Positions 6,984-18,755 of a stretch of DNA of 23,568 nucleotides are shown piece by piece (positions within the stretch are counted from its first letter, which is position 1; the number at the start of each line of letters is the position of its first letter). The notes below the pieces were generated by a model. The model saw nothing but the letters and a program-made list of their open reading frames with translations. It was not told the origin of the DNA and did not search any database. The DNA comes from Bacteriovoracia bacterium (GTDB lineage Bacteria; Bdellovibrionota; Bacteriovoracia; Bacteriovoracales; Bacteriovoracaceae), in contig JBKHVI010000044.1 of assembly GCA_046570105.1 (NCBI GenBank), forward strand, positions 1-23,568, in the 5' to 3' direction. A program made the position numbers and the translations under genes.

Positions 6984-8672
6984 CTGCTGCTCTTTTGCTT
7001 CTTGAGCGCGCTTAAATTCCTCTTCTTGCTCCTGCTTTTGCTTCTCTTCCTCTTCCAGTTTCGCCTTTTGCTTATTGAGCATATCTTGCCACTTGGCCTG
7101 GTTGAGATTTTGGAAGTTTTCTAACTCTGCAAGCTTAGCGGCATCGTGATCTTTAAAGAAAACAGAATTCACAAAACGACGAAGGGCCTTCTTTTCAACT
7201 TCGCCGATACAATTAATCAGGGCGTAATAGGCCGGCGGTTTACCCAGCTGCGGATGGTTGGCGACGGTGATGTAGCCTTTAAAGGGCGATTCAAGCCTAA
7301 AGGAGGTGCCTTCTTTAAGTTGGCGTTTGCAAGTAAAGACCAAATCAGATTCTGAAACTTGCACAAGACTAATAACATCATCTATTTCTGCAATAGAAAG
7401 TGGATTCGATTTACGGAGATAAACACGTAACTCCTGATCACCCATCTCTTCGGCGGCTTCATCTTTAATTTTTTTATCCACCATAGAAGCCATCTTTAAG
7501 ACAACTTCAGTTGTGAGCTCTCCATCCATGGCGATGAGCTGTGTATAGCCCATGGAACTTTGCATCTCTTTTGAGGTCACAGGGCCAGCATTAAATACAA
7601 TAATATAGGGTGTAAGCTTAGTTAGTTTCTTTGTGAGAATCTGCGTGAGCTTCTGGACGAAGGCCATATCATTAAGCGGAGGTGGCGGCCCATCATCTGT
7701 GGGTGGCCCGTCTAGGACGATCGCGATCACTTGCGGCTGAAGAGACTGCAACTCATCTACCGGATCTTTCAAATATGGCTGACAACGAATAGCTTGGTTA
7801 AACTTATCCGTTCGTTGCGCTGATTGGTAGAAGGACATATTACGATCAATCACCATTACTCTGACGCTTTTTTTGAATGACCGCTCTTGATTGTCTTTTA
7901 GCCAGGCCTCCAAATACTTTCGTGCTTTATTGACGGCATGATCACGCTCGCCAGTCAGTTCGTTGACTCGATCTTCCGAGTCCCCTTCGCTTGTCACAAC
8001 AGGATCGACCCAGGCAAAGTCTAGATCGAGCGCGCAAGCCGAGTGATAAAGACGAACTTCATTGGTTTTTTTCTTGATTTTCATCAGAGGAGAGGGAATT
8101 TTTTTTCTATCATGCCAAGGATGGCGCACGATAAGTTCTTCTCCTTGCGAATAATCTAGCAAGCTCTCAACGTGAATGCCCTTATGATACACATAACCAA
8201 TTTTACAAAGATGGCGAACTTCTAGTTCTTTATCAATTTTAGCAGTAGCAAATCCATGCTCCTTCACTTGTCCGGGAGTCACTAGAATCATAGCACCGAA
8301 AACAACGTCAAAAAATTCGCCACTTTTAATATGATTGACGTTCACTCCGGCCAAAAAACTTTCTTTATGCTGCTCAGGTGGTGATAGGTAATCATGCAAA
8401 CCCACAATCACTAAAGGCGAACTATGATTGGTGCGCACTAATAAGCGCGCCAAGTGCATGTAGTTATCAGTGTTTTTTGAGAAGTCGACAAAGATGAGTG
8501 CTGGTGAAACTTTAGTGACATGAATGAGCATGGCCTGAATATGTTCAGCGCCTTTATCCTGGCGTTGCTCGATAGCAACGCCAGGATAAAGGCGCTGAAA
8601 CTCAGACAAGAGCGCTTTAAAATAAGCGTTATCACTCCCGAGATAGAGAAGCTTCTTCCCTTCAGTACTCAT
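6924..8672 (-). CDS. Hypothetical signalling protein with receiver-like and PilZ-like domains and a charged C-terminal coil
   Basis: 582-aa ORF. REC-like segments KKLLYLGSD...PALIFVD and RVMVIDRN...PQVIAIVLD. PilZ-like RVYLR...QVSESDL...EKKALRRFV. Confidence 0.6.
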   Translation of the reverse strand: MSTEGKKLLYLGSDNAYFKALLSEFQRLYPGVAIEQRQDKGAEHIQAMLIHVTKVSPALIFVDFSKNTDNYMHLARLLVRTNHSSPLVIVGLHDYLSPPEQHKESFLAGVNVNHIKSGEFFDVVFGAMILVTPGQVKEHGFATAKIDKELEVRHLCKIGYVYHKGIHVESLLDYSQGEELIVRHPWHDRKKIPSPLMKIKKKTNEVRLYHSACALDLDFAWVDPVVTSEGDSEDRVNELTGERDHAVNKARKYLEAWLKDNQERSFKKSVRVMVIDRNMSFYQSAQRTDKFNQAIRCQPYLKDPVDELQSLQPQVIAIVLDGPPTDDGPPPPLNDMAFVQKLTQILTKKLTKLTPYIIVFNAGPVTSKEMQSSMGYTQLIAMDGELTTEVVLKMASMVDKKIKDEAAEEMGDQELRVYLRKSNPLSIAEIDDVISLVQVSESDLVFTCKRQLKEGTSFRLESPFKGYITVANHPQLGKPPAYYALINCIGEVEKKALRRFVNSVFFKDHDAAKLAELENFQNLNQAKWQDMLNKQKAKLEEEEKQKQEQEEEFKRAQEAKEQQSAAAPEASEATDSKEEKPS

Positions 8673-9887: not shown

Positions 9888-11297
9888 ATGTATATGAAAA
9901 CTCTGACTGCTTGGTTTTATTCAGTACTACTCACCGCTTGCACTCAGCTGCCTGGTGGCCCCTCTCGTGAGATCGCTTCCATTGATCAAAACTTAGCGCG
10001 TATGTCGGTCGAAGATATTCAGCAAGAGATGCAACAAAAGTTTCTACAAATCGAATACACCACTCTCTCGGCCTATGAAGGTCTGGGACAATTTGATGAG
10101 CATCTCAACCAAACACCAGGACTCTTGGAAGATAACCCGCATTATCCAGGTCTACTTGCTGCTCGTATTATGATTGAAGAATTACAAGATGAAATCATTG
10201 ATCTAAGGGATCAATTTTATCTGGCGGCCTTGTCGCCTGCTCTTAGTATTGAAGAGCGCTTAAAAAGTATTGATCTCCTGCGAGCCACGCTACCTCCGAC
10301 GAAAACTGAGCTTGATAAATTGATCCACAACCATTTGCACCAGTCTCTGGTGGATTTTACTCGTCAGATATTGATGGACTTGGCCTCAGTAGAAGAGAAG
10401 GTTATTCGCAAATCATTAGAAAATCTCTACCAACAATTAGGCCTTGTTTGGGGCCCACTTGCCCCCAAAGATATTATGGCAATTGGTGATTGGCGCGAGA
10501 TTACGCAGAAAGCTTTTGAGCGCAATAAAACGAATCCTGATTGGCAAATGGCACGCAGAAATTACGAACATCGCGCTCATGAGATGCGCACTAATCTAAA
10601 AACGGCCTTTAGTAATAAAAACAATAAGGCCTTTTTCCCGTCAGCGACTAAGGCAGGCAATATTATTGGTACAGAGTTTCCTGCGAAAGTGTGGTCACTC
10701 ACATACGATGATGGTCCAGGCGCTCAAACCAGCCGTAAGATCCTCTCTCATCTTACACTTCACAAACTCAAAGCGACATTCTTTCAGTTAACTAGGAATG
10801 CCAAGACACTCAAAGGTGTCTCAAAAGAAATTCGTGATGCTGGGATGGAAATCGCCTCGCACTCTTACACCCATCAACAGACACCCAAGCTCACTCAGGA
10901 ACAGCGCGATCGTGAAATCCGAGTGGCAGCGCTTGATTTAGCTGAACTCCACGAGAGAGAAATAAAATTCTATCGCCTTCCCTATGGCGCCGGTGTTTCC
11001 ACTCCCGATATTCGTGAGCGCATTGCCAAGGCGAATTTGATTCATGTTTTCTGGAGTATTGATACGCTTGACTGGATGGCGCAGGCCCCTTCCGAGATTG
11101 TCGCTCGTACTCTCAAACAAATGAAAGCTTCTAAAAATGATGCCGGTGTTATTCTTTTTCACGACATCCATGAACGCACCGTCATCGCTTCAGAAGAAGT
11201 CATGCGCTACCTCAAAGAAGATTCACGACGAGTTTGTCTCTTAGATGAAATTGTCGAAGCGATCAACAAAGGCGAAGTGCCTTGTCCCGCTCAATAG
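9888..11297 (+). CDS. Lipoprotein polysaccharide (peptidoglycan GlcNAc) deacetylase, CE4/NodB family
   Basis: Lipobox LLTAC and all five CE4 motifs: TYDDGP, HSYTH, RLPYG, DTLDW, ILFHD. Long helical N-terminal domain. Confidence 0.92.
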   Translation: MYMKTLTAWFYSVLLTACTQLPGGPSREIASIDQNLARMSVEDIQQEMQQKFLQIEYTTLSAYEGLGQFDEHLNQTPGLLEDNPHYPGLLAARIMIEELQDEIIDLRDQFYLAALSPALSIEERLKSIDLLRATLPPTKTELDKLIHNHLHQSLVDFTRQILMDLASVEEKVIRKSLENLYQQLGLVWGPLAPKDIMAIGDWREITQKAFERNKTNPDWQMARRNYEHRAHEMRTNLKTAFSNKNNKAFFPSATKAGNIIGTEFPAKVWSLTYDDGPGAQTSRKILSHLTLHKLKATFFQLTRNAKTLKGVSKEIRDAGMEIASHSYTHQQTPKLTQEQRDREIRVAALDLAELHEREIKFYRLPYGAGVSTPDIRERIAKANLIHVFWSIDTLDWMAQAPSEIVARTLKQMKASKNDAGVILFHDIHERTVIASEEVMRYLKEDSRRVCLLDEIVEAINKGEVPCPAQ

Positions 11298-11587
11298 TTT
11301 TCCTACTTTTAATAAGCTGCCAAACTCATCAACCTAAAGTTGATATCTGGAGCGCTGGGGAACTCTTAAGAGACCTGCAAGACAAAGGTGAAACTCTACC
11401 TTGTGTCGCTGACCCTGCACTTTATCTAAGAGTGCTCTGGCCTAAGCTTGATAAATCACCCATGCCTAAAGATCATTCTTGTATAAAAGAGCGCACCAAA
11501 TGTATTGAAGAAGCAAAAAAAGAATTTTGTGAGAGTGAACTCTTAGAAGAAATTGAACTAGAAAAAGAGCAATTTAAGATTCCCTAG
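11282..11587 (+). CDS. Small Cys-rich putative lipoprotein
   Basis: Hydrophobic signal ending LLISC, with four further Cys. Overlaps the deacetylase stop. Confidence 0.6.
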   Translation: MSRSIVFLLLISCQTHQPKVDIWSAGELLRDLQDKGETLPCVADPALYLRVLWPKLDKSPMPKDHSCIKERTKCIEEAKKEFCESELLEEIELEKEQFKIP

Positions 11588-11592
11588 GGATA

Positions 11593-11760
11593 AGATTTCG
11601 AATTCACCCGTCTCATCCTGGCGCAAAGAACTGATTAAATAATTAGACTAATGCCAGGATGAATCAAGCTTTAACCGCAGTAAGCACGAGGCGTCCTCAA
11701 GTTAATTTTCACTTTTGAAGTAAATCTATGCTTCGGACTTAACGGGTGAATTCGGAATCT
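11593..11760. repeat. Structured dispersed element, copy 1 (168 bp; ncRNA or non-autonomous mobile element)
   Basis: 19-bp terminal IR (11593-11611 / 11742-11760, one G-T), internal hairpins, and homology to the reverse complement of 17989-18155. Flanked by direct repeat TAAGATTCCCTA. Confidence 0.85.
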
Positions 11761-12532
11761 AAGATTCCCTAAACTCTTTCATCTTTGCCAATCCAGCACT
11801 CAATCCCTGCTTGATATAATCGCCACAGACTTTTTTCCAAGTCGTGAGTACGGCTTCTGTGACTCCCCCTTTCGAGGCCACCTGGGAAATCTTGGTGAGC
11901 ATATCTTCTTTGGCGTCTAATTTTTTTAAGGTTCCTTTGAAGGCTTCGATTAAAATCTTTCGTGCCAGCTCGGGATCGCCGCCATTTTGGGCCGCAAATT
12001 CTCCCGCATCATGGATCCATTGATACAGATAAGCAGGCGCACAGCCACTATGAAGAGTGTAGAGATCAATATGTTCTTCCGTCATTAGGGGCGCGAGTCC
12101 CAGTCCATTTAATCTTTTCTGCCACAAACCGATTTCAGCGGGCGATAAACCTTGTTGGCCCCACAAGACCACTCCATCTCCAGTCGCCACACCGAGATTG
12201 GGCATTAAGCGGACAACTTTCAGACATGGAGTTGCTGCAAGAAATTTCTTGATCTGAGTCGCTGCTAAGAGCGAAATCAAAATGGTATCAGCTTTTAAGT
12301 GTGACTTTAACAGTGTCAGACCTTCTGCCAGTTTTTGTGGCTTAAAACCCAACATGACGGCATCAAACTCATCACCACTTTGCCAGACGCTCCCATCGAG
12401 TTCACGAGATAATTCCTGTGCCTTACTCATGGTTGGATTCCAGCACAAAAACTCTATTTGAGGATCTGAGGTTTTAAGTCCTCGTGCCATGGCGCGTGCC
12501 ATATTGCCACATCCCCAAATAAGCATCTTCAT
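11759..12532 (-). CDS. proC: Pyrroline-5-carboxylate reductase
   Basis: IWGCGNMA Rossmann motif, LGFKPQ, VRLMPN, SGCAPAY and VASKGGVT. Start at MKMLIW overlaps the putA stop (ATGA). Confidence 0.92.
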   Translation of the reverse strand: MKMLIWGCGNMARAMARGLKTSDPQIEFLCWNPTMSKAQELSRELDGSVWQSGDEFDAVMLGFKPQKLAEGLTLLKSHLKADTILISLLAATQIKKFLAATPCLKVVRLMPNLGVATGDGVVLWGQQGLSPAEIGLWQKRLNGLGLAPLMTEEHIDLYTLHSGCAPAYLYQWIHDAGEFAAQNGGDPELARKILIEAFKGTLKKLDAKEDMLTKISQVASKGGVTEAVLTTWKKVCGDYIKQGLSAGLAKMKEFRES

Positions 12533-15500
12533 AGGCCAATCTCCAAAGGCGCTCCATGTCTCATGGTATTTACCGCAAATGAGCGCACCCATAAATATTG
12601 ATCAAGCCAAGCACTCCAAAGTCCCAGTGGTGGATGCTCGCCATCATGATAGAGAGCACGCATGGTGATATCGAGTGAGCCAGTGGGTAGAGACATCGCC
12701 AACATTTTCTCACGGAACTCACCGCTACCTGCAACATAGACCACATTGATAAGGGGATTTGCGAGGATCGCCTGCAATTCATTTTTTCCGGTGAAATAAA
12801 CTTCCAGGTTAGGTTTAGCAAAACCGGCCTGCCAAGCTAATTCACAGAGACCTTTCCACACACTGTAGCTTTTGCTGTTCGTGCAGATGATGGCCATACC
12901 TGAGCCGCTCGCCAAAGCCGAGAGCCACTGAATTAATAAGGCCATGCTTACGGCTTCCTCACCTGTAATGATGAGCGAGACTTCACGCGGAAGATCTTTT
13001 TGATCGTAACTGAGTTGACCGGGAATTCTTAAATTTGGATGAATGCTGCTGAGATGCTGGGGAATACCTACCGATCCCCATTCAACAAAACTCTTGAGCT
13101 GACGTTTCTGCGCTTCATCTACCGTTTGCGTAAGAGATTCAAAATGCGAGAGCACTTTATGAGCTAATTTCTCCCAACGTAAAGTGCGGCCTTGAACTGA
13201 TAGTAAGCTGGCGCGTGGAAGCTCAAAGCGATACCCGCTCCCCTCTTCCCAAGCTGCATTGCTAGTAACAGATTCAAGTTCACCCGTGGTGTAAAACTGC
13301 GCCATATAGTCTCGGCCACCGGCCTTAGGTCCAGTACCTGAAAGTTTGAAGCCACCAAAAGGTTCAATCGCTACGCGCGCGCCCGTGTTCGGTCGATTGA
13401 CGTAGAGATTACCGCATTTCAATTCACGCACGAGGTAATCAATATCATCTTGTGACTGGCCGTAAATTCCGCCCGTCAAACCATACTCAGTTGAATTGAA
13501 AAGCTTAACCGCTTCATCTAAAGAGCGATAAGGAACAATATGAATCACTGGACCAAAGATTTCTCTTTGCGCCCAAGATTCCGGATGCATCGCTCGCTCC
13601 ATAGGTAACTCAATCATGACAGGCCCTACGATATGACCCTCATGAGCTTCAGTCGAGCGATCTACCCACACTTTACCACCATAGGTTTCTGCTTCAGTTG
13701 TCGCCTGACGAACGGCTTCACGAATACGGAATTTATCCGTCTCAGTCACAACCGGATTCACCAAGACATGACCTAAAGTTGAAGGCCCGGCAGGCAAATC
13801 CTTAACCGCCTTCACCAGGCGAGCAAGTAGTGCATCTTTTACTTCCGCATCTACCAGAACGCGTGAGCAGGCCGAACATTTCTGACCGGCGTGTCCGAAA
13901 GCGGCATATAAAATGCCGGATACTGTTTCATCTTGTTCGCAATTATTCGTCACCACGATGGCATTTTTCCCACCCATTTCAGTGATCACTTTCTTAGGAA
14001 GAAATTTTTCAGTGATGGGATGCTTCACCGCTTGAACCGAAGCGGTTTGATAAATCCATTGGCCCACACCTTTTGAGCCAGTGAAAACGATTGATGAAAC
14101 AAAAGGACTTTGCACTAAAGGTGCTCCCACTTTTTCACCATCACCCGTCACAAAGACGAGAGCCGTTTTTGGGACACCTGCAGAATACAGTAGCTCAACT
14201 AATTCGCGTGCAATCAAAGGAGTCTGCTCGGCCGGCTTTAAGATAACAGCATTACCAGCAATTAAAGGGGCCACCGCCATTCCACAAGGGATCGCGAGGG
14301 GAAAATTCCAAGGAGCAATCACCGCAGTCACACCGCGAGGTTGAGCCGATTTTAATTCGGCCGACCAACGCAAATCTTCCCGCACATAAAAATTCAAGAA
14401 ATCAATCGCTTCGTCCACATCCGCCAGCGCCTCACTCCACGCCTTGCCTGCCTCAAAAACAATCAAAGCGGCCAAACGATTGCGCTCTTGCCACATCCGA
14501 TCAGCGGCTTTCAAAATCACACCCAATCGATAGGAGCGCGGTTTTTCCGTCCAGCTATTCCCGTTTTTCATCCCTTGATAAAGATCTTGGGCGTGCTTGA
14601 TGGCCTCGGCGGGAGTTAACTCATCAATGACTCCAACTAAGAGAGAGGGATGTGAGTTACAATTAATTTTTAATCCCGGCGCATTTTTAAACTGCTCTTG
14701 TTTCGCCTCAACCTCAGTTCTAAAAGTCTTAAGTGCCGCCAAGAACTGATCGAGTTCATGCTTCACATAAAGTCGAACCGGTGTGCAATTTTTGAATCCC
14801 GAATCCAAGGCGGTTTCTAATTCATCTCGCACCAACTCGCCTTGTGCTTGTTTTGTTTCATGCACTGTTAACGGAGCGCCAAAGGCATCTTTTTTGTTAT
14901 GCGAGCGCATGATGGTAAGAATACCGACTTGTGAAGAGTTCTCCATAATACGACGAACGAGATAGGCCATTCCCACCAGCAAATTACCAATCGGCATGTA
15001 ATTTCGTGTCGGCCATCCCATGCGGGCCAGCCCATGTGAGAGCGCTTCATAAGTCATGTGTAGACACTGATGCTCAATCACCGGAGCTTCTGGATAATGC
15101 AATTGGCGAAGGGCCTCAGCAAAACAGTGGTCTTGTAAATTATGCGAGCCGAGTGCCAATTGAAGTTCCGCTGGATGGGCCAGTGTCATCGCTGCCAATT
15201 GGCGGAAATGCAGATCAGACTCTTCTTTGTTTAAAAATTGCGGAGCATGATGAGAATGCGCAGTCGCCTCGATCGTCTCAGCATCCCAGTAGGCGCCTTT
15301 TACCAAACGAATTGGCATACGCACGCCACGTTCACGCGCCAAAGCAATAATATCTCTTAAATGAGTCGCACCATCACGCAAATAGGCCTGGAGAACAATG
15401 CCAGTATCACTCCAGCCATGCAATTCTGGGGTCTCTAGCAATACCTGACGATAAATTTTCAATACTAAATCACGGTAGTGATAGTGTTCCGCATCGATAT

Positions 15501-16677
15501 TGATAAATACTTGTTCACGACGGGCCTCGACCAAAATCTGGCGTAAACGAGGGGCCACTAAATTATAAGTGTATTCGTATGCGTGAGGTTTAAAGTCATG
15601 AGAGAGCGCTGACACTTTAATCGATACATGGGCCTTATTAATACCTGCACCGTTGCGCTCACCTGGTTGCACATGAATTTTTAAACCATGAACAATTGCT
15701 AAAACTCGTTTTAAATATTCGTCGGCCTCCCCTTCAGAAACCACCAACTCACCCAATTGATCCAGTGTCGCTTCACGACGTGAATCATGCAGCGACTGAA
15801 GAGTCTTATCTGAAGTGGCAATGGATTCACCGGCAATAAAACGCTTCGCCATTTTTTTTACTAGTGCACGCACGACAAAGGCCAGCATACCTGCGGGAAT
15901 CACTCTCACCGCCATCAAACCAAACTTTAATCCCACCACATACGGCCGTGGCAGTGGACGAGTGCCACCGAGCGAAACGCCACGCTGACGAAGCCGGCGA
16001 TCATCAGACAATAATCGGCGCAGTGATTCGATCAGGTTGCGCTTAACTTCAAAACCTTGCTGGTCGTGATCAAGTGAGGGAAGCAGGGCCAAAAATTTGA
16101 GTAAGTGAATACGAATCAAGGCGAACTGGGCCGTTAACCCTAATCCCCAATCGGAAACTCTCTCAAACAGAGTTGGGCGATAAGACTGCACATGGCGAAC
16201 GAGATGACGTAATTTTTCTTTGGTCAGCTCTTCCACTGTCGCCCAGCGCTCCACTTGGCGCCAGTCAGGAAGTTTTTCTGTACTCGTAACCCACTCCCAC
16301 TCTGTTGGGAAATGACGTGAGTCCAGTGTACTCATGGCACGGGCATGGTCACGCAACTCTTGCGCTACAATCCCTTCCCGCTCGCAGGCATCGAGCAATA
16401 ATAATTCGCGCGCCAAACGACGAGAGCCAGCGAGAATTTTTTTCTCTGAAGCAATGACTGCAAATAAAACAGGAAAACCCGCCACGTTGACTTCACGTCG
16501 CATGGAGGGGCCTGGCGTTTGCTGACTCCACTGTTCAATAAAGTGACTCAACTCTGCACAAGGTTTATTCACATGAATTAACAGCGCTTGATAATCCGAC
16601 GGACATATCAGCGTGAAACCACCCGGCAATGGGTGCTGAACGAGTGAATAAACTTCCGCCACGTGGGGCGCAGACAT
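12529..16677 (-). CDS. putA: Bifunctional proline dehydrogenase / glutamate-semialdehyde dehydrogenase
   Basis: PRODH motifs SIKVSAL, NIDAE, RLVKGAYWD and YLVRRIMEN. ALDH motifs APWNFPLAI, FTGS, EMGGKNA, GQKCSAC and EIFGPV. AGGAGG SD before ATG 16677. Confidence 0.95.
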   Translation of the reverse strand: MSAPHVAEVYSLVQHPLPGGFTLICPSDYQALLIHVNKPCAELSHFIEQWSQQTPGPSMRREVNVAGFPVLFAVIASEKKILAGSRRLARELLLLDACEREGIVAQELRDHARAMSTLDSRHFPTEWEWVTSTEKLPDWRQVERWATVEELTKEKLRHLVRHVQSYRPTLFERVSDWGLGLTAQFALIRIHLLKFLALLPSLDHDQQGFEVKRNLIESLRRLLSDDRRLRQRGVSLGGTRPLPRPYVVGLKFGLMAVRVIPAGMLAFVVRALVKKMAKRFIAGESIATSDKTLQSLHDSRREATLDQLGELVVSEGEADEYLKRVLAIVHGLKIHVQPGERNGAGINKAHVSIKVSALSHDFKPHAYEYTYNLVAPRLRQILVEARREQVFINIDAEHYHYRDLVLKIYRQVLLETPELHGWSDTGIVLQAYLRDGATHLRDIIALARERGVRMPIRLVKGAYWDAETIEATAHSHHAPQFLNKEESDLHFRQLAAMTLAHPAELQLALGSHNLQDHCFAEALRQLHYPEAPVIEHQCLHMTYEALSHGLARMGWPTRNYMPIGNLLVGMAYLVRRIMENSSQVGILTIMRSHNKKDAFGAPLTVHETKQAQGELVRDELETALDSGFKNCTPVRLYVKHELDQFLAALKTFRTEVEAKQEQFKNAPGLKINCNSHPSLLVGVIDELTPAEAIKHAQDLYQGMKNGNSWTEKPRSYRLGVILKAADRMWQERNRLAALIVFEAGKAWSEALADVDEAIDFLNFYVREDLRWSAELKSAQPRGVTAVIAPWNFPLAIPCGMAVAPLIAGNAVILKPAEQTPLIARELVELLYSAGVPKTALVFVTGDGEKVGAPLVQSPFVSSIVFTGSKGVGQWIYQTASVQAVKHPITEKFLPKKVITEMGGKNAIVVTNNCEQDETVSGILYAAFGHAGQKCSACSRVLVDAEVKDALLARLVKAVKDLPAGPSTLGHVLVNPVVTETDKFRIREAVRQATTEAETYGGKVWVDRSTEAHEGHIVGPVMIELPMERAMHPESWAQREIFGPVIHIVPYRSLDEAVKLFNSTEYGLTGGIYGQSQDDIDYLVRELKCGNLYVNRPNTGARVAIEPFGGFKLSGTGPKAGGRDYMAQFYTTGELESVTSNAAWEEGSGYRFELPRASLLSVQGRTLRWEKLAHKVLSHFESLTQTVDEAQKRQLKSFVEWGSVGIPQHLSSIHPNLRIPGQLSYDQKDLPREVSLIITGEEAVSMALLIQWLSALASGSGMAIICTNSKSYSVWKGLCELAWQAGFAKPNLEVYFTGKNELQAILANPLINVVYVAGSGEFREKMLAMSLPTGSLDITMRALYHDGEHPPLGLWSAWLDQYLWVRSFAVNTMRHGAPLEIGL

Positions 16678-16743
16678 GGTTGGCCTCCTGAGAATTTCAA
16701 AGGCCTTTAGTCTACTCGGGCGCCCGGTTGTTCGCAAAGACGT

Positions 16744-16773
16744 TTGACGCTAGAAGTGCCTTAAGTCTAACAT
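16744..16773 (+). promoter_or_regulatory. Putative sigma70 promoter, probably leaderless transcript
   Basis: TTGACG-N18-TAACAT-N6-GTG(16780) with no SD. Confidence 0.5.
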
Positions 16774-16779
16774 CTAAGT

Positions 16780-17970
16780 GTGAAGTCACTTTTCGCTCTA
16801 ATTTTGTGTACTCTTTTCACAACGCATCCTTCTGCGGCGCAGAGCTATACCCAAGCTGATCTAGAGGCGTTGGAGAAAGAACAAAGCTATAGCGAGTTCT
16901 TTGCCCATGCTCTCGATGTTCGTCCGACTGAACGCACTGAATACTGGCAAACCATGGTGCAAAACATGGGAGAGGGCTATCTCAAGTCCTTGCTCAAAAA
17001 AAATCGCTTAGATGAAGCTGATTTTCAACAGATGGAGCGCCTCGCTGGCTGGAAGGCCTTAGCGAGCTTTGAATTTTTTAGAATTAAACGCCAAGAAGTG
17101 GCGACTCGCTGGTTCACACAATGCTTCCAAGAAAACTCAACACCCGAATCATCCTGCTGGAAAGACTTCGTGGCTTTTTGGGAAATCGACCGTCAAGAAC
17201 CTGACATGGCGCCACGACTGCTTACGCTCCTCACTCCTTATTTAGGAAAGAGTGGTGATCCCAGCAATCCCCTTCACCGAGCGCGCCTGACAGTGAATGC
17301 TTATTTTATTCTAAAACCACTGCTCATTTCACCGGTGGCCGAACTTCAATGCAAAAAGCCTGAGCTGCAAGATATTCTGTGGCAGAAACTTAATAATGAG
17401 TGGGAGCTCAATCTCAAACAGAAAAGCTTCACCGCCTTTCTTAAGGAGCTGGCCCATGAAAGTTGTTGGCAGGCCTTGCACCCCAGAATTCATCAATTGT
17501 GGACAACAGGTGCGGCCCCGCAAGATTTAAGTTTGGGTTATCTTTTTTTGAAGTCACAAGGGGCACTCACTGAAAATGAGCGTGACCTGTTTTACTTAAG
17601 CTACTTGCTGAATTCTCCGGCACGCGGTGAAACTTTTAATCTTGCTTGGGCGAGGATCCAAGAGCTCGGCAAGAAACCTCTACTTCGTGAAGAATTGCTT
17701 GCGACATTAAAGAAATGGTCACCGCTTCCTGGCGAATTATTCAATGACCTTGACCTCATTAAGCGTCGAGCGGTTTCTCGTCATCTGCAACGCCACTTCC
17801 CGGAATACCTGGATCATTACGCTCATGTCTGTGTGGACTTCTTTGGGGGCAAGAAACGCTTTCCCAAGGGCAGCCCTGCCCTTCAGTGTCGTTCGCTCTT
17901 CGATCTAGCAGCGAGCGAAAAAGACCTTCTACCGGATGCTTTGATTCAAACCTTCAAGGCTTCGCTTTGA
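16780..17970 (+). CDS. Secreted helical hypothetical protein
   Basis: 396-aa ORF with a Sec signal peptide (MKSLFALILCTLFTTHPSAA) and several Cys that could form disulfides. Confidence 0.8.
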   Translation: MKSLFALILCTLFTTHPSAAQSYTQADLEALEKEQSYSEFFAHALDVRPTERTEYWQTMVQNMGEGYLKSLLKKNRLDEADFQQMERLAGWKALASFEFFRIKRQEVATRWFTQCFQENSTPESSCWKDFVAFWEIDRQEPDMAPRLLTLLTPYLGKSGDPSNPLHRARLTVNAYFILKPLLISPVAELQCKKPELQDILWQKLNNEWELNLKQKSFTAFLKELAHESCWQALHPRIHQLWTTGAAPQDLSLGYLFLKSQGALTENERDLFYLSYLLNSPARGETFNLAWARIQELGKKPLLREELLATLKKWSPLPGELFNDLDLIKRRAVSRHLQRHFPEYLDHYAHVCVDFFGGKKRFPKGSPALQCRSLFDLAASEKDLLPDALIQTFKASL

Positions 17971-17988
17971 TTTTATCTCTTGTCTGAC

Positions 17989-18155
17989 AAATCTCATTTC
18001 ACCCATGAAGCCCGAATCAAAGTTTCAACTTACATAGAAGTCACTACTAGAGGGCGCCTCGAGCTTCCTACTTCTTCAGCTTGATTCATTCTGGCATTGA
18101 TTATCGAGTCTTAAAAAGATTCGTGCGCCAGAATGAGATGGGTGAAATGAGATTT
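17989..18155. repeat. Structured dispersed element, copy 2 (167 bp, inverted relative to copy 1)
   Basis: Perfect 18-bp terminal IR AAATCTCATTTCACCCAT / ATGGGTGAAATGAGATTT, with the same internal hairpins as copy 1 carrying compensatory changes. Confidence 0.85.
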
Positions 18156-18172
18156 CTATTTCGTCGACCATC

Positions 18173-18219
18173 GCCGCCTCTCGCCTCCTGGCTCCGGCGG
18201 CATACCGTCCATCCTGGAC
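18173..18219 (-). repeat. GC-rich REP-like hairpin cluster with GGA loops
   Basis: On the minus strand, GTCCA-GGA-TGGAC is followed by GCCGCC...GCC-AGGA-GGC...GGCGGC. Confidence 0.5.
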
Positions 18220-18221
18220 AT

Positions 18222-18252
18222 AAAATAAAAAGGGACCCCGAAGGATCCCTTT
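18222..18252 (-). terminator. Rho-independent terminator of the SWIB gene (possibly bidirectional)
   Basis: Minus strand reads AAAGGGATCC-TTCG-GGGTCCCTTTTTATTTT. Confidence 0.9.
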
Positions 18253-18277: not shown

Positions 18278-18685
18278 TTACTTCAAGTGGTTAGAAACGA
18301 GCTTAGTCATTTCGAACATTGAAACAGTCTTCTTGCCGCCGAAAACAGCTTTTAGCTTGTCGTCAGCATTGATGTTACGCTTGTTTTTTGCATCTTGAAG
18401 ATTGTGCTTCTTGATGTAAACCCAGATCTTCTTCACAACTTCAGTGCGTGGAAGAGCTGTTGCGCCTACGATTTCAGCCAAAGCTGCAGAAGGAGTCAAA
18501 GCCTTCATGAAAGCTGGGTTTGGCTTACGAGCAGTTTTCTTCTTAGGAGCAGCTACTTTCTTAGTAGTTGCTTTCTTAGCTGTTGCTTTCTTAGCAGTAG
18601 CTTTTTTAGCAGCTGGCTTCTTAGCCGTTGCTTTCTTAGCTGTTGCTTTTTTAGCAGTAGCTTTCTTTGTTGTTTTCTTAGCCAT
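18278..18685 (-). CDS. Histone-H1-like Lys/Ala-rich protein fused to a SWIB/MDM2 domain
   Basis: GGAGG SD and ATG at 18685. (AKKAT)n repeats are followed by PSAALAEIVG..LPRTEVVKKIWVYIKKHNLQD..NKRNINADDKLKAVFG. Confidence 0.92.
   Translation of the reverse strand: MAKKTTKKATAKKATAKKATAKKPAAKKATAKKATAKKATTKKVAAPKKKTARKPNPAFMKALTPSAALAEIVGATALPRTEVVKKIWVYIKKHNLQDAKNKRNINADDKLKAVFGGKKTVSMFEMTKLVSNHLK
18545..18680 (-). repeat. Degenerate 15-bp coding tandem repeat
   Basis: Variants of GCTAAGAAAGCAACA encoding AKKAT pentapeptides. Confidence 0.8.
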
Positions 18686-18755
18686 GTGACTTTCCTCCGT
18701 CAAATTGAGTCCCAAAGGGTACTCGTGGTTGTTATCATACTTAGGTCGAAACCTA

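What the first reader, a model, noticed from the sequence alone, without database searches (positions are those of the whole stretch)
11593..18155. Two diverged copies of a ~168-nt covarying structured element with a retron msr-msd-like layout and no RT nearby
Seen: 11593-11760 (+) aligns with the reverse complement of 17989-18155 in four collinear blocks: TTCACCCrTCTCATyCTGGCGCA (21/23), AATGCCAGrATGAATCAAGCT (20/21), AAGCwCGAGGCGyCCTCwAGT (18/21) and TTCGGrCTTmAyGGGTGAA (16/19). Stem differences are compensatory: CACCCGT/ACGGGTG versus CACCCAT/ATGGGTG, and TCATCCTGGC/GCCAGGATGA versus TCATTCTGGC/GCCAGAATGA. The outer halves of the 18-19-bp closing stems differ in sequence yet still pair, and loops vary freely. 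Both copies share a closing stem, three short hairpins (ACTT..AAGT, GAGG..CCTC, GCT..AGC) and one ~50-nt long hairpin with a conserved base and variable tip. Both sit between convergent genes. Established: retron ncRNAs have a1/a2 inverted repeats enclosing short msr hairpins, then a long msd hairpin, with a priming G at the stem end. Read as copy 2 (+) or copy 1 (-), the order matches. Copy 2 has an unpaired G (18007) directly after the stem; copy 1 has T there and a G three bases later. Inference: this is an undescribed multicopy ncRNA or ssDNA element family under structural selection, possibly orphan retron-like templates served in trans or a SINE-like retroelement. Ordinary MITEs conserve terminal sequence rather than pairing alone. 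G-U pairs occur in both orientations, so the active strand is unresolved.
Basis: partly seen in the sequence, partly recalled or inferred. Interest (0 to 1): 0.9.

Follow-up and report, generated by a model that had tools for sequence, protein, structure and literature searches.

The report
Folded repeat from endless mini-transposons
The two look-alike stretches are not retron templates but old copies of a small jumping-DNA family of predatory bacteria that lack their transposon ends, while the folded core is still kept intact by selection for a job not yet known.

Summary
In detail: the two stretches are 2 of 32 full copies in this Bacteriovoracaceae genome, folding into a covarying three-way junction. 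The retron reading fails: no RT in this genome or in G160 (100% complete, young copies), and a G follows the stem in only 4 of 32 copies. In relatives the same core sits inside 23-24-bp terminal inverted repeats (TIRs), some with 8-10-bp target duplications. The same TIRs bound ~1.04-kb insertion sequences with an IS1-like DDE-fold transposase, three of them in this genome. Only TIR-bearing copies are young. Copy 1's site is empty in a relative and shows a 12-bp duplication. So these are most likely MITE copies that lost their TIRs. Unusual points: the core is foreign to the IS, rides in two unrelated TIR shells, and stays under purifying selection when immobile (motifs 2% diverged, synonymous sites 39%). 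A tandem GA/GA motif points to one strand; 21 of 30 copies lie between convergent genes. Function is untested; a 3'-end RNA structure is my best guess. The scan probably noted this family earlier on another piece of this genome (e1-8057891).

The parts
11575..11586 (+). Left copy of a 12-bp direct repeat; end of the upstream 101-aa ORF. Present once at the empty site of G007, where the two convergent gene ends overlap
11587..11759 (-). Copy 1, the piece between the direct repeats (173 nt), without TIRs; subfamily A (ATCCTGG hairpin). The likely functional strand is minus
11593..11611 (.). Copy 1 closing stem P1, left arm (pairs with 11742-11760)
11613..11662 (.). Copy 1 long hairpin P2: conserved 9-bp base, 2-nt bulge, variable fixed-length tip
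11691..11738 (-). Copy 1 arm P3: 4-bp covarying helix (11693-11696 with 11735-11738), capped on the minus strand by GA/GA, enclosing a variable ~30-nt loop
11742..11760 (.). Copy 1 closing stem P1, right arm
11760..11771 (+). Right copy of the 12-bp direct repeat; end of proC on the minus strand
17989..18155 (+). Copy 2, without TIRs; subfamily B (ATTCTGG hairpin). P1 17989-18006 with 18138-18155; P3 18010-18015 with 18050-18055; P2 18086-18136. The orthologous site in G007 keeps little beyond one P1 arm
18159..18226 (+). A separate ~60-nt repeat family (11-12 copies in the genome) abutting copy 2; not part of the core
11282..11587 (+). 101-aa ORF with no Pfam match; its stop codon is completed by the first base of copy 1
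11759..12592 (-). proC-like pyrroline-5-carboxylate reductase; its stop codon is completed by the last base of copy 1
16780..17970 (+). 396-aa ORF with no Pfam match, ending 18 nt before copy 2
18278..18715 (-). SWIB/MDM2-domain protein gene, convergent on copy 2

Best explanation
The two stretches are old copies of a MITE (non-autonomous DNA transposon) that have lost their TIRs, and whose interior is a ~165-nt folded cassette. Step 1 (shown by sequence): full-length members are 214-238 bp, with TIRs of the type AACTGNCC-N8-TGGTGTT and in some cases 8-10-bp target duplications. The TIRs match those of ~1.04-kb IS elements encoding a Zn-finger/HTH/DDE-fold transposase related to IS1. Step 2 (inferred, not assayed): that transposase moved the MITEs in trans; copies accumulated at 3' ends of genes, mostly between convergent genes. 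Step 3 (inferred, about 0.7): the TIRs were later deleted or eroded, fixing the copies in place. Step 4 (shown): the core stayed under purifying selection for both pairing and motif sequence. Step 5 (inferred, about 0.45): it works as a folded single strand at the 3' end of transcripts. The strand-neutral Watson-Crick stems P1 and P2 would cap both convergent mRNAs against 3' exonucleases, and the GA/GA-capped P3 arm on one strand would form a specific RNA motif or protein-binding site. Template switching may help keep the P1 arms perfect.
For: TIR-bearing copies in G003, G006, G007, G185, G195, G196, G244. Three IS copies with the same TIR type in this genome, TIRs visible in 31 of 33 IS loci across the family. 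Transposase: NF033558 IS1 family E 6.5e-9, below the cut-off; model pLDDT 78 whose best matches are the ISCth4 transposase and integrases; invariant D119/D120, D198, N244. Target duplications in 7 of 26 TIR-bearing copies, null 0.3%. Nearest-neighbour identity above 90% in 12 of 27 TIR-bearing copies; at most 82.8% in 52 bare copies. Bare and TIR-bearing copies intermix on the tree, at least 6 changes. One site is shared by a TIR-bearing G006 copy and an eroded G000 copy. Partial TIR remnants in L046 and L049. Copy 1 has an empty site in G007 with a 12-bp duplication, which could be an 8-bp duplication plus terminal TA on each side (inference). Selection in five orthologous bare pairs: 4 changes in 214 motif sites, 50 in 292 loop sites, 1847 in 4705 four-fold sites. 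21 of 30 copies between convergent genes against 17.5% background. GA/GA in 69 of 77 parsed copies.
Against: TIR scores are bimodal with few intermediates, and G000 flanks keep only a faint trace (8 of 64 above the null 95th percentile, p 0.03). In six bare copies the direct repeats lie 3-14 nt from the stem anchor, against 30-52 nt to the left TIR end in full elements, so both TIRs must have been removed almost entirely in each. Bare-copy repeats (9-16 bp with up to one mismatch) run longer than 8-10 bp. The tree does not give the direction of change; starred branches force only 1 change. G160 carries the core in a different TIR shell and has no match to the first transposase. The transposase has Asn where a DDE Glu is expected (recalled expectation) and its activity is untested. 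No expression data. The core has no terminator-like U tract by the simple scan, and flush genes read either strand equally often (16 and 16). Four of 9 changed P1 pairs between G000 and G007 were not compensated.
Confidence: 0.6

Rival explanations
1. The bare core is itself the mobile unit. It inserts with a longer, variable duplication through another enzyme: an HUH (Y1) transposase acting on the folded single strand, or reverse transcription of a transcript whose TIR stem was trimmed by RNase III. IS ends captured it secondarily, more than once.
For: The core is absent from 33 IS interiors (best E 0.14). It occurs in a second TIR shell that belongs to a 367-aa transposase only 20-22% identical to the first, while 0 of 16 other short elements with that shell match the core. 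Direct repeats of 10-13 bp hug 5 of 32 bare copies, null 0.2%. The genome has 11 Y1-type loci, one with a half copy at its stop. RNase III cleavage at MITE TIRs is reported for Correia elements (PMC10969869, passages read).
Against: No young bare copies in any genome examined. No RT match in G000. The half copy flanks only 1 of the 11 Y1 loci and not its 92%-identical paralogue. Capture by a second shell needs no mobility of the bare form.
Confidence: 0.15
2. Same MITE origin, but the retained function is at the DNA level: four TCC/GGA half-sites at near-fixed spacing (about 40, 37 and 40 bp) bind a host protein, or the element extrudes as a cruciform or three-way junction where convergent transcription changes supercoiling.
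For: No strand bias in wobble pairs (G-T 29, A-C 32, p 0.8). Loop lengths are fixed while loop sequence is near random (hairpin loop 31-33 nt, identity 45% against 29% expected). Both arms have the same spacing. Convergent location.
Against: Copy-specific compensations in the 4-bp P3 helix (several pair types) need base pairing, which duplex protein sites do not. GA/GA conservation is strand-specific.
Confidence: 0.2
3. Neutral MITE debris: the arms stay paired only because template switching corrects imperfect inverted repeats.
For: Template switching perfects inverted repeats in bacteria (PMC5941160, passages read). P1 is 96% Watson-Crick (833 of 864 cells). A perfect 26-bp repeat inside a gene of this window looks like such an event. 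Copies do get lost or collapse to P1-only hairpins.
Against: Template switching explains pairing, not sequence conservation: motifs, including unpaired bases, diverge 2% against 39% at synonymous sites. It does not explain GA/GA or fixed loop lengths.
Confidence: 0.08
4. Orphan retron msr-msd templates served in trans.
For: An outer stem enclosing a short arm and then a long hairpin, on the strand that GA/GA also favours. G195 encodes two RTs.
Against: No RT in G000 or in G160; the G195 RTs are not beside a copy. G after the stem in 4 of 32 copies, C in 32 of 32 on the other strand. TIRs and target duplications explain the spread. Retrons encode msr, msd and RT in one cassette with a conserved priming G (PMC6868368, passages read).
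Confidence: 0.02

Closest known systems
Bacterial MITEs, e.g. Chunjie (Geobacter), Nezha (cyanobacteria), Correia/NEMIS (Neisseria), QMITE2 (Coxiella); PMC3184786 and PMC10969869, passages read
   Same: TIRs shared with a cognate IS, target duplications, no ORF, about 200-240 bp, stable fold, filled and empty sites. Truncated copies lacking TIRs and direct repeats are described for QMITE2.
   Different: The interior is not derived from the cognate IS, occurs in two unrelated TIR shells, and stays under measured purifying selection with covariation after the TIRs are gone. All 32 full copies in this genome lack intact TIRs.
bcr1 repeat of the Bacillus cereus group (PMC3184786, passages read; lead from note e1-8057891)
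   Same: About 155 bp, patchy between strains, compensatory changes keep a closing stem with two arms.
   Different: bcr1 has 5-bp direct repeats and is shown to be transcribed. Here the duplications are 8-10 bp, a cognate IS is identified, transcription is untested, and the second arm is a 4-bp helix with GA/GA. No sequence comparison with bcr1 was run.
IS1 family insertion sequences (NCBIfam NF033558)
   Same: About 1 kb, Zn finger, HTH and RNase H-like fold, 8-10-bp duplications, TG at positions 6-7 of the end if the end starts two bases before AACTG minus one (TAAACTG).
   Different: Scores 31-48 bits against a cut-off of 100; ends are not GGnnnTG (motif cited in PMC6807381, passage read); Asn at the putative third catalytic position; single ORF.
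REP/BIME/REPIN with RAYT, and SPRITE of pneumococcus (REP details recalled; SPRITE from PMC3184786)
   Same: Hairpin repeats enriched just after stop codons of convergent genes.
   Different: Longer three-way fold; no copies flank the two RAYT-like genes here; linked to a DDE-fold IS instead.
Retron msr-msd (PMC6868368, passages read)
   Same: Superficial order: closing stem, short arm, long hairpin.
   Different: No linked RT, no conserved priming G, multicopy and dispersed, TIR-bearing relatives.

Membership tests
Retron ncRNA | RT gene in the same cassette | tested here: not met
   No RT beside any copy; no PF00078 match in G000 (87.8% complete) or in 4 of 5 relatives
Retron ncRNA | Conserved priming G after the 5' arm of the closing stem | tested here: not met
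   G in 4 of 32 on one strand; C in 32 of 32 on the other
Retron ncRNA | Self-complementary ends enclosing msr and msd | tested here: met
   P1 of 11-21 bp in all 32 copies; not specific to retrons
Retron ncRNA | msDNA product | not testable with these tools
   needs extraction
MITE | TIRs at both ends | tested here: inconclusive
   Met in full-length relatives; not met in the two window copies or any of the 32 G000 copies
MITE | TIRs shared with an autonomous IS | tested here: met
   second shell
MITE | Target site duplication with empty orthologous site | tested here: met
   Copy 1; 7 of 26 TIR-bearing copies; 5 of 32 bare copies. Not seen for copy 2
MITE | Short, non-coding, dispersed multicopy | tested here: met
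MITE | Mobilised in trans by the cognate transposase | not testable with these tools
   Only indirect: young TIR-bearing copies
IS1 family (partner IS) | Transposase reaches the NF033558 cut-off | tested here: not met
   31-36 bits and 47.8 bits against 100; no Pfam match
IS1 family (partner IS) | DDE/RNase H fold with N-terminal Zn finger and HTH | tested here: met
   third catalytic residue appears to be Asn
IS1 family (partner IS) | GGnnnTG ends | tested here: not met
   Ends read TAAACTG, TTAACTG and similar
REP/RAYT | Copies flank a RAYT or Y1 gene | tested here: not met
   One half copy at 1 of 11 Y1 loci, none at the two RAYT-like loci
Known Rfam family | Match at or near gathering score | tested here: not met
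   Best overlap with a copy 22 bits against 90; none on the element in 13 more loci
Guide or bridge RNA | Variable loops match target or flanking DNA | tested here: not met
   Own-flank and genome-wide matches equal to controls
K-turn | Tandem GA plus 3-nt bulge plus canonical stem | tested here: not met
   GA/GA present, but no pairing above null at bulge 3

The most novel reading that the evidence does not exclude
The core is an independent structured RNA module, with a GA/GA-capped arm conserved even where the long hairpin has changed sequence. It has been picked up by two unrelated IS1-like transposon shells, and the bare copies were inserted from a processed transcript rather than eroded in place. 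That would be a SINE-like element in bacteria with a double life as DNA-transposon cargo.
Probability: 0.08. Interest if true: 0.85.

Novelty: new variant of a known kind. Interest (0 to 1): 0.45.

Why it matters
It links a covarying repeat to its probable transposase, which such repeats usually lack, so mobility can be assayed directly. It offers a full series in one clade: young TIR-bearing copies, aged ones, bare cores and collapsed stems. That makes the domestication of MITE interiors measurable. The conserved fold is a candidate new RNA motif spread by transposons. It also points to two IS1-related transposase groups that miss the Pfam and NCBIfam cut-offs. It is not a new retron or retroelement on present evidence.

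Tried and rejected
Rfam: no match on the element. tRNA or ribozyme identity: not seen in Rfam; a likeness of GUCC/GGAC to hammerhead stem II is recalled only, and the catalytic core is absent. Viral contigs, phages, plasmids: no match. RT searches. Y1/RAYT linkage rejected as incidental. Origin from the IS interior rejected. Guide-like loops rejected. K-turn rejected. P1 arms copied from local flanks: only 2 of 32 copies with a match of 9 or more, p 0.10 overall, so not general. Strand by folding energy (17 against 15) and by wobble pairs was uninformative. Promoter and terminator scan around copy 1: none. Expression: no RNA holder listed; the one run laid was contigs of unknown kind. Single-sequence fold failed (pLDDT 37). 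A recalled CsrA motif pattern found nothing; this is not a valid test of absence. Dropped rows: the G126 hit L067 (E 3.8e-5, matched on both strands, no nhmmer hit), duplicate loci, partial copies, and 2 G185 copies my motif parser could not read. Right-side distances are wrong in several rows and were not used. Genome searches with the RNA model scored only 18 candidates per genome, so copy numbers in relatives are lower bounds and absences mean 'not found in those searched'. Literature searches found no description of this family or IS; the library lacks most subscription journals, ISfinder could not be searched, and supplements were not read.
Full report
Observation. The two stretches align as described: the four blocks give 21/23, 20/21, 18/21 and 16/19, and the whole gives 117 identities, 46 mismatches and 10 gaps. 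Both fold far better than shuffles on either strand (z -5.4 to -8.7). They are 2 of 32 full-length and 4 partial copies in the 3.0-Mb genome; the reversed-genome decoy gives at best E 3.5. Cores are 52-81% identical in pairs, mean 67%. Rfam has nothing on them.

Structure. The supported fold is a three-way junction. P1 is a closing stem of 11-21 bp whose sequence varies between copies. P2 is a hairpin with a conserved 9-bp base, a 2-nt bulge and a variable tip of fixed length (31-33 nt). P3 is a 4-bp long-range helix, GTCC/GGAC. On the plain 32-copy alignment, 90% of cells pair and 22 of 32 tested pairs change on both sides; slid controls reach at most 47%. On 72 copies from eight genomes, 28 of 30 pairs do so, though that alignment was fitted to the model. 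Wobble pairs show no strand bias (G-T 29, A-C 32). On the copy 1 (-) / copy 2 (+) strand, P3 is followed by GA on both sides in 69 of 77 parsed copies. From my own knowledge this is the signature of tandem sheared G-A pairs, and it is the only strand clue found. A K-turn is not supported.

Retron test. There is no PF00078 match in this genome (87.8% complete), nor in G160 (100%), G185, G003 or G006; G195 has two RTs, not beside copies. The base after the 5' arm is G in 4 of 32 copies on one strand and C in 32 of 32 on the other. Retrons need a conserved priming G and an RT in the same cassette (PMC6868368, passages). The retron reading is rejected.

Distribution. All 28 genome-collection matches are titled Bacteriovoracia or its families; viral contigs gave none. 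Covariance-model searches found the family in 5 of 151 and 8 of 151 genomes of the family and order, in two genera once one doubtful hit is dropped, and in none but G000 of 151 across the phylum. These searches score few candidates per genome.

What it is. In G003, G006, G007, G185, G195, G196 and G244, many copies extend into 23-24-bp TIRs, giving elements of 214-238 bp. The same TIRs bound ~1.04-kb elements, three of them in this genome (C3:76583-77619, C11:56858-57937, C38:27616-28700). They encode a 291-294-aa protein found in 84 of 201 family genomes. It scores weakly to the IS1 model (E 6.5e-9, below cut-off) and has no Pfam match. Its model (pLDDT 78) matches the ISCth4 transposase and integrases best. 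Seven of 26 TIR-bearing copies keep an 8-10-bp duplication, null 0.3%. Twelve of 27 TIR-bearing copies have a neighbour above 90% identity in their genome; none of 52 bare copies exceeds 82.8%. So recent copying is seen only with TIRs. On the tree, copy 1 groups weakly with G007 copies whose TIR resembles the C38 IS, and copy 2 with G006/G003 copies whose TIR resembles the C3/C11 IS (supports 86 and 82).

The two sites. Copy 1's site is empty in G007, where the two convergent gene ends overlap; the filled site duplicates 12 bp, and the insert supplies the last base of both stop codons. I infer an 8-bp duplication plus terminal TA dinucleotides, preserved because both repeats are coding. A related strain in run X1 covers copy 1 in one gap-free contig. 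At copy 2's site G007 keeps little more than one P1 arm, so copy 2 predates the split. A G006 TIR-bearing copy shares its insertion point with an eroded partial G000 copy, and other sites show cores collapsed to P1 alone.

What is unusual. First, the core is not IS-derived: no match in 33 IS loci. Second, G160 carries it in a different TIR shell. That shell belongs to a ~1.26-kb IS whose 367-aa transposase is 20-22% identical to the first and also scores weakly to IS1. None of 16 other short elements with that shell match the core. In G160 the P2 sequence differs but still pairs, while P3 is kept. Third, bare copies are under purifying selection. In five G000/G007 orthologous pairs the motifs differ at 4 of 214 sites, the loops at 50 of 292, and four-fold sites of nearby genes at 1847 of 4705. 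P1 changes are compensated in 5 of 9 cases there, 4 of 5 in a G006 pair and 7 of 7 in a G003 pair. Fourth, 21 of 30 scorable copies lie between convergent ORFs against 17.5% expected, most within tens of bases of a stop codon (crude ORF calls).

Open point on origin. TIR scores are bimodal, with few intermediates, and in six bare copies the direct repeats sit 3-14 nt from the stem anchor against 30-52 nt in full elements. Loss of both TIRs by deletion is plausible given the age of the copies and the variable leftover spacers, but independent movement of the bare core is not excluded.

Mechanism and odds. MITE cargo of IS1-like transposases: about 0.85. Bare copies as TIR-loss remnants: about 0.7. 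Retained function as a folded 3'-end RNA structure: about 0.45; as a DNA-level protein array or cruciform: about 0.2; none: under 0.1. No expression data were available. The loops are not guides.

Comparison and novelty. It works like bcr1, SPRITE and other folded MITE-like repeats (PMC3184786 and PMC10969869, passages only); TIR-less truncated MITEs are known (QMITE2). The family, its partner IS groups, the two-shell carriage and the measured selection on bare copies were not found in ten literature searches. An earlier scan note on another piece of this genome (e1-8057891) seems to describe the same family; I saw only its summary and do not count it as evidence. Verdict: new variant of a known kind, interest 0.45.

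Noticed in passing
window 8544-8599: Perfect 26-bp inverted repeat with a 4-nt loop inside a coding region, the longest such repeat in the genome. Relatives encode different residues on one arm and a related strain in run X1 differs at 5 bases and 2 indels in that arm: a recent template switch or an assembly artefact.
   Followed up: partly
window 18159-18226; also G000 C28, C60, C12, C62, C55, C21, C103, C113, C7: Second repeat family of about 60 nt, 11-12 copies, usually just before a terminator-like hairpin. Stems vary while ATCCT/CTCCT loops are kept; the opposite strand reads AGGAT/AGGAG in loops, like CsrA/Rsm binding sites (recalled). Also seen in relatives lacking the core.
   Followed up: partly
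G000 C14, C62 (two), C4, C59, C63, C2, C33, C72: Nine dispersed ~200-aa Y1 HUH proteins with a GGRRPGAGRK-type N-terminus and a shared upstream ACATATGCC motif, without obvious flanking hairpins; plus two RAYT-like genes on C1 and C8.
   Followed up: partly
G000 C3:76583-77619, C11:56858-57937, C38:27616-28700; L358; L359: Two IS1-related transposase groups below Pfam and NCBIfam cut-offs; the first has invariant D119/D120, D198 and N244 and occurs in 84 of 201 family genomes.
   Followed up: yes
L360-L375: Many 235-264-bp MITEs with the second TIR type and varied interiors in genus g36; the narrow length range suggests a preferred end-to-end spacing.
   Followed up: no
G000 C22:19622-19789; L108; L078; L104: Copies follow the same helicase-like gene in four genomes of two genera: bare in three, TIR-bearing and young in G195. 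Either an old site that seeded later copies or a hotspot.
   Followed up: partly
G000 C1:104437-104598 and L134: The same convergent junction holds copies in opposite orientations in G000 and G006, pointing to independent insertions.
   Followed up: no
window 18533-18682: 15-bp tandem repeats encoding a Lys/Ala-rich histone-like tail on the SWIB-domain protein.
   Followed up: no
window 12529-16737: PutA-like proline dehydrogenase/aldehyde dehydrogenase fusion of 1402 aa directly upstream of proC.
   Followed up: no
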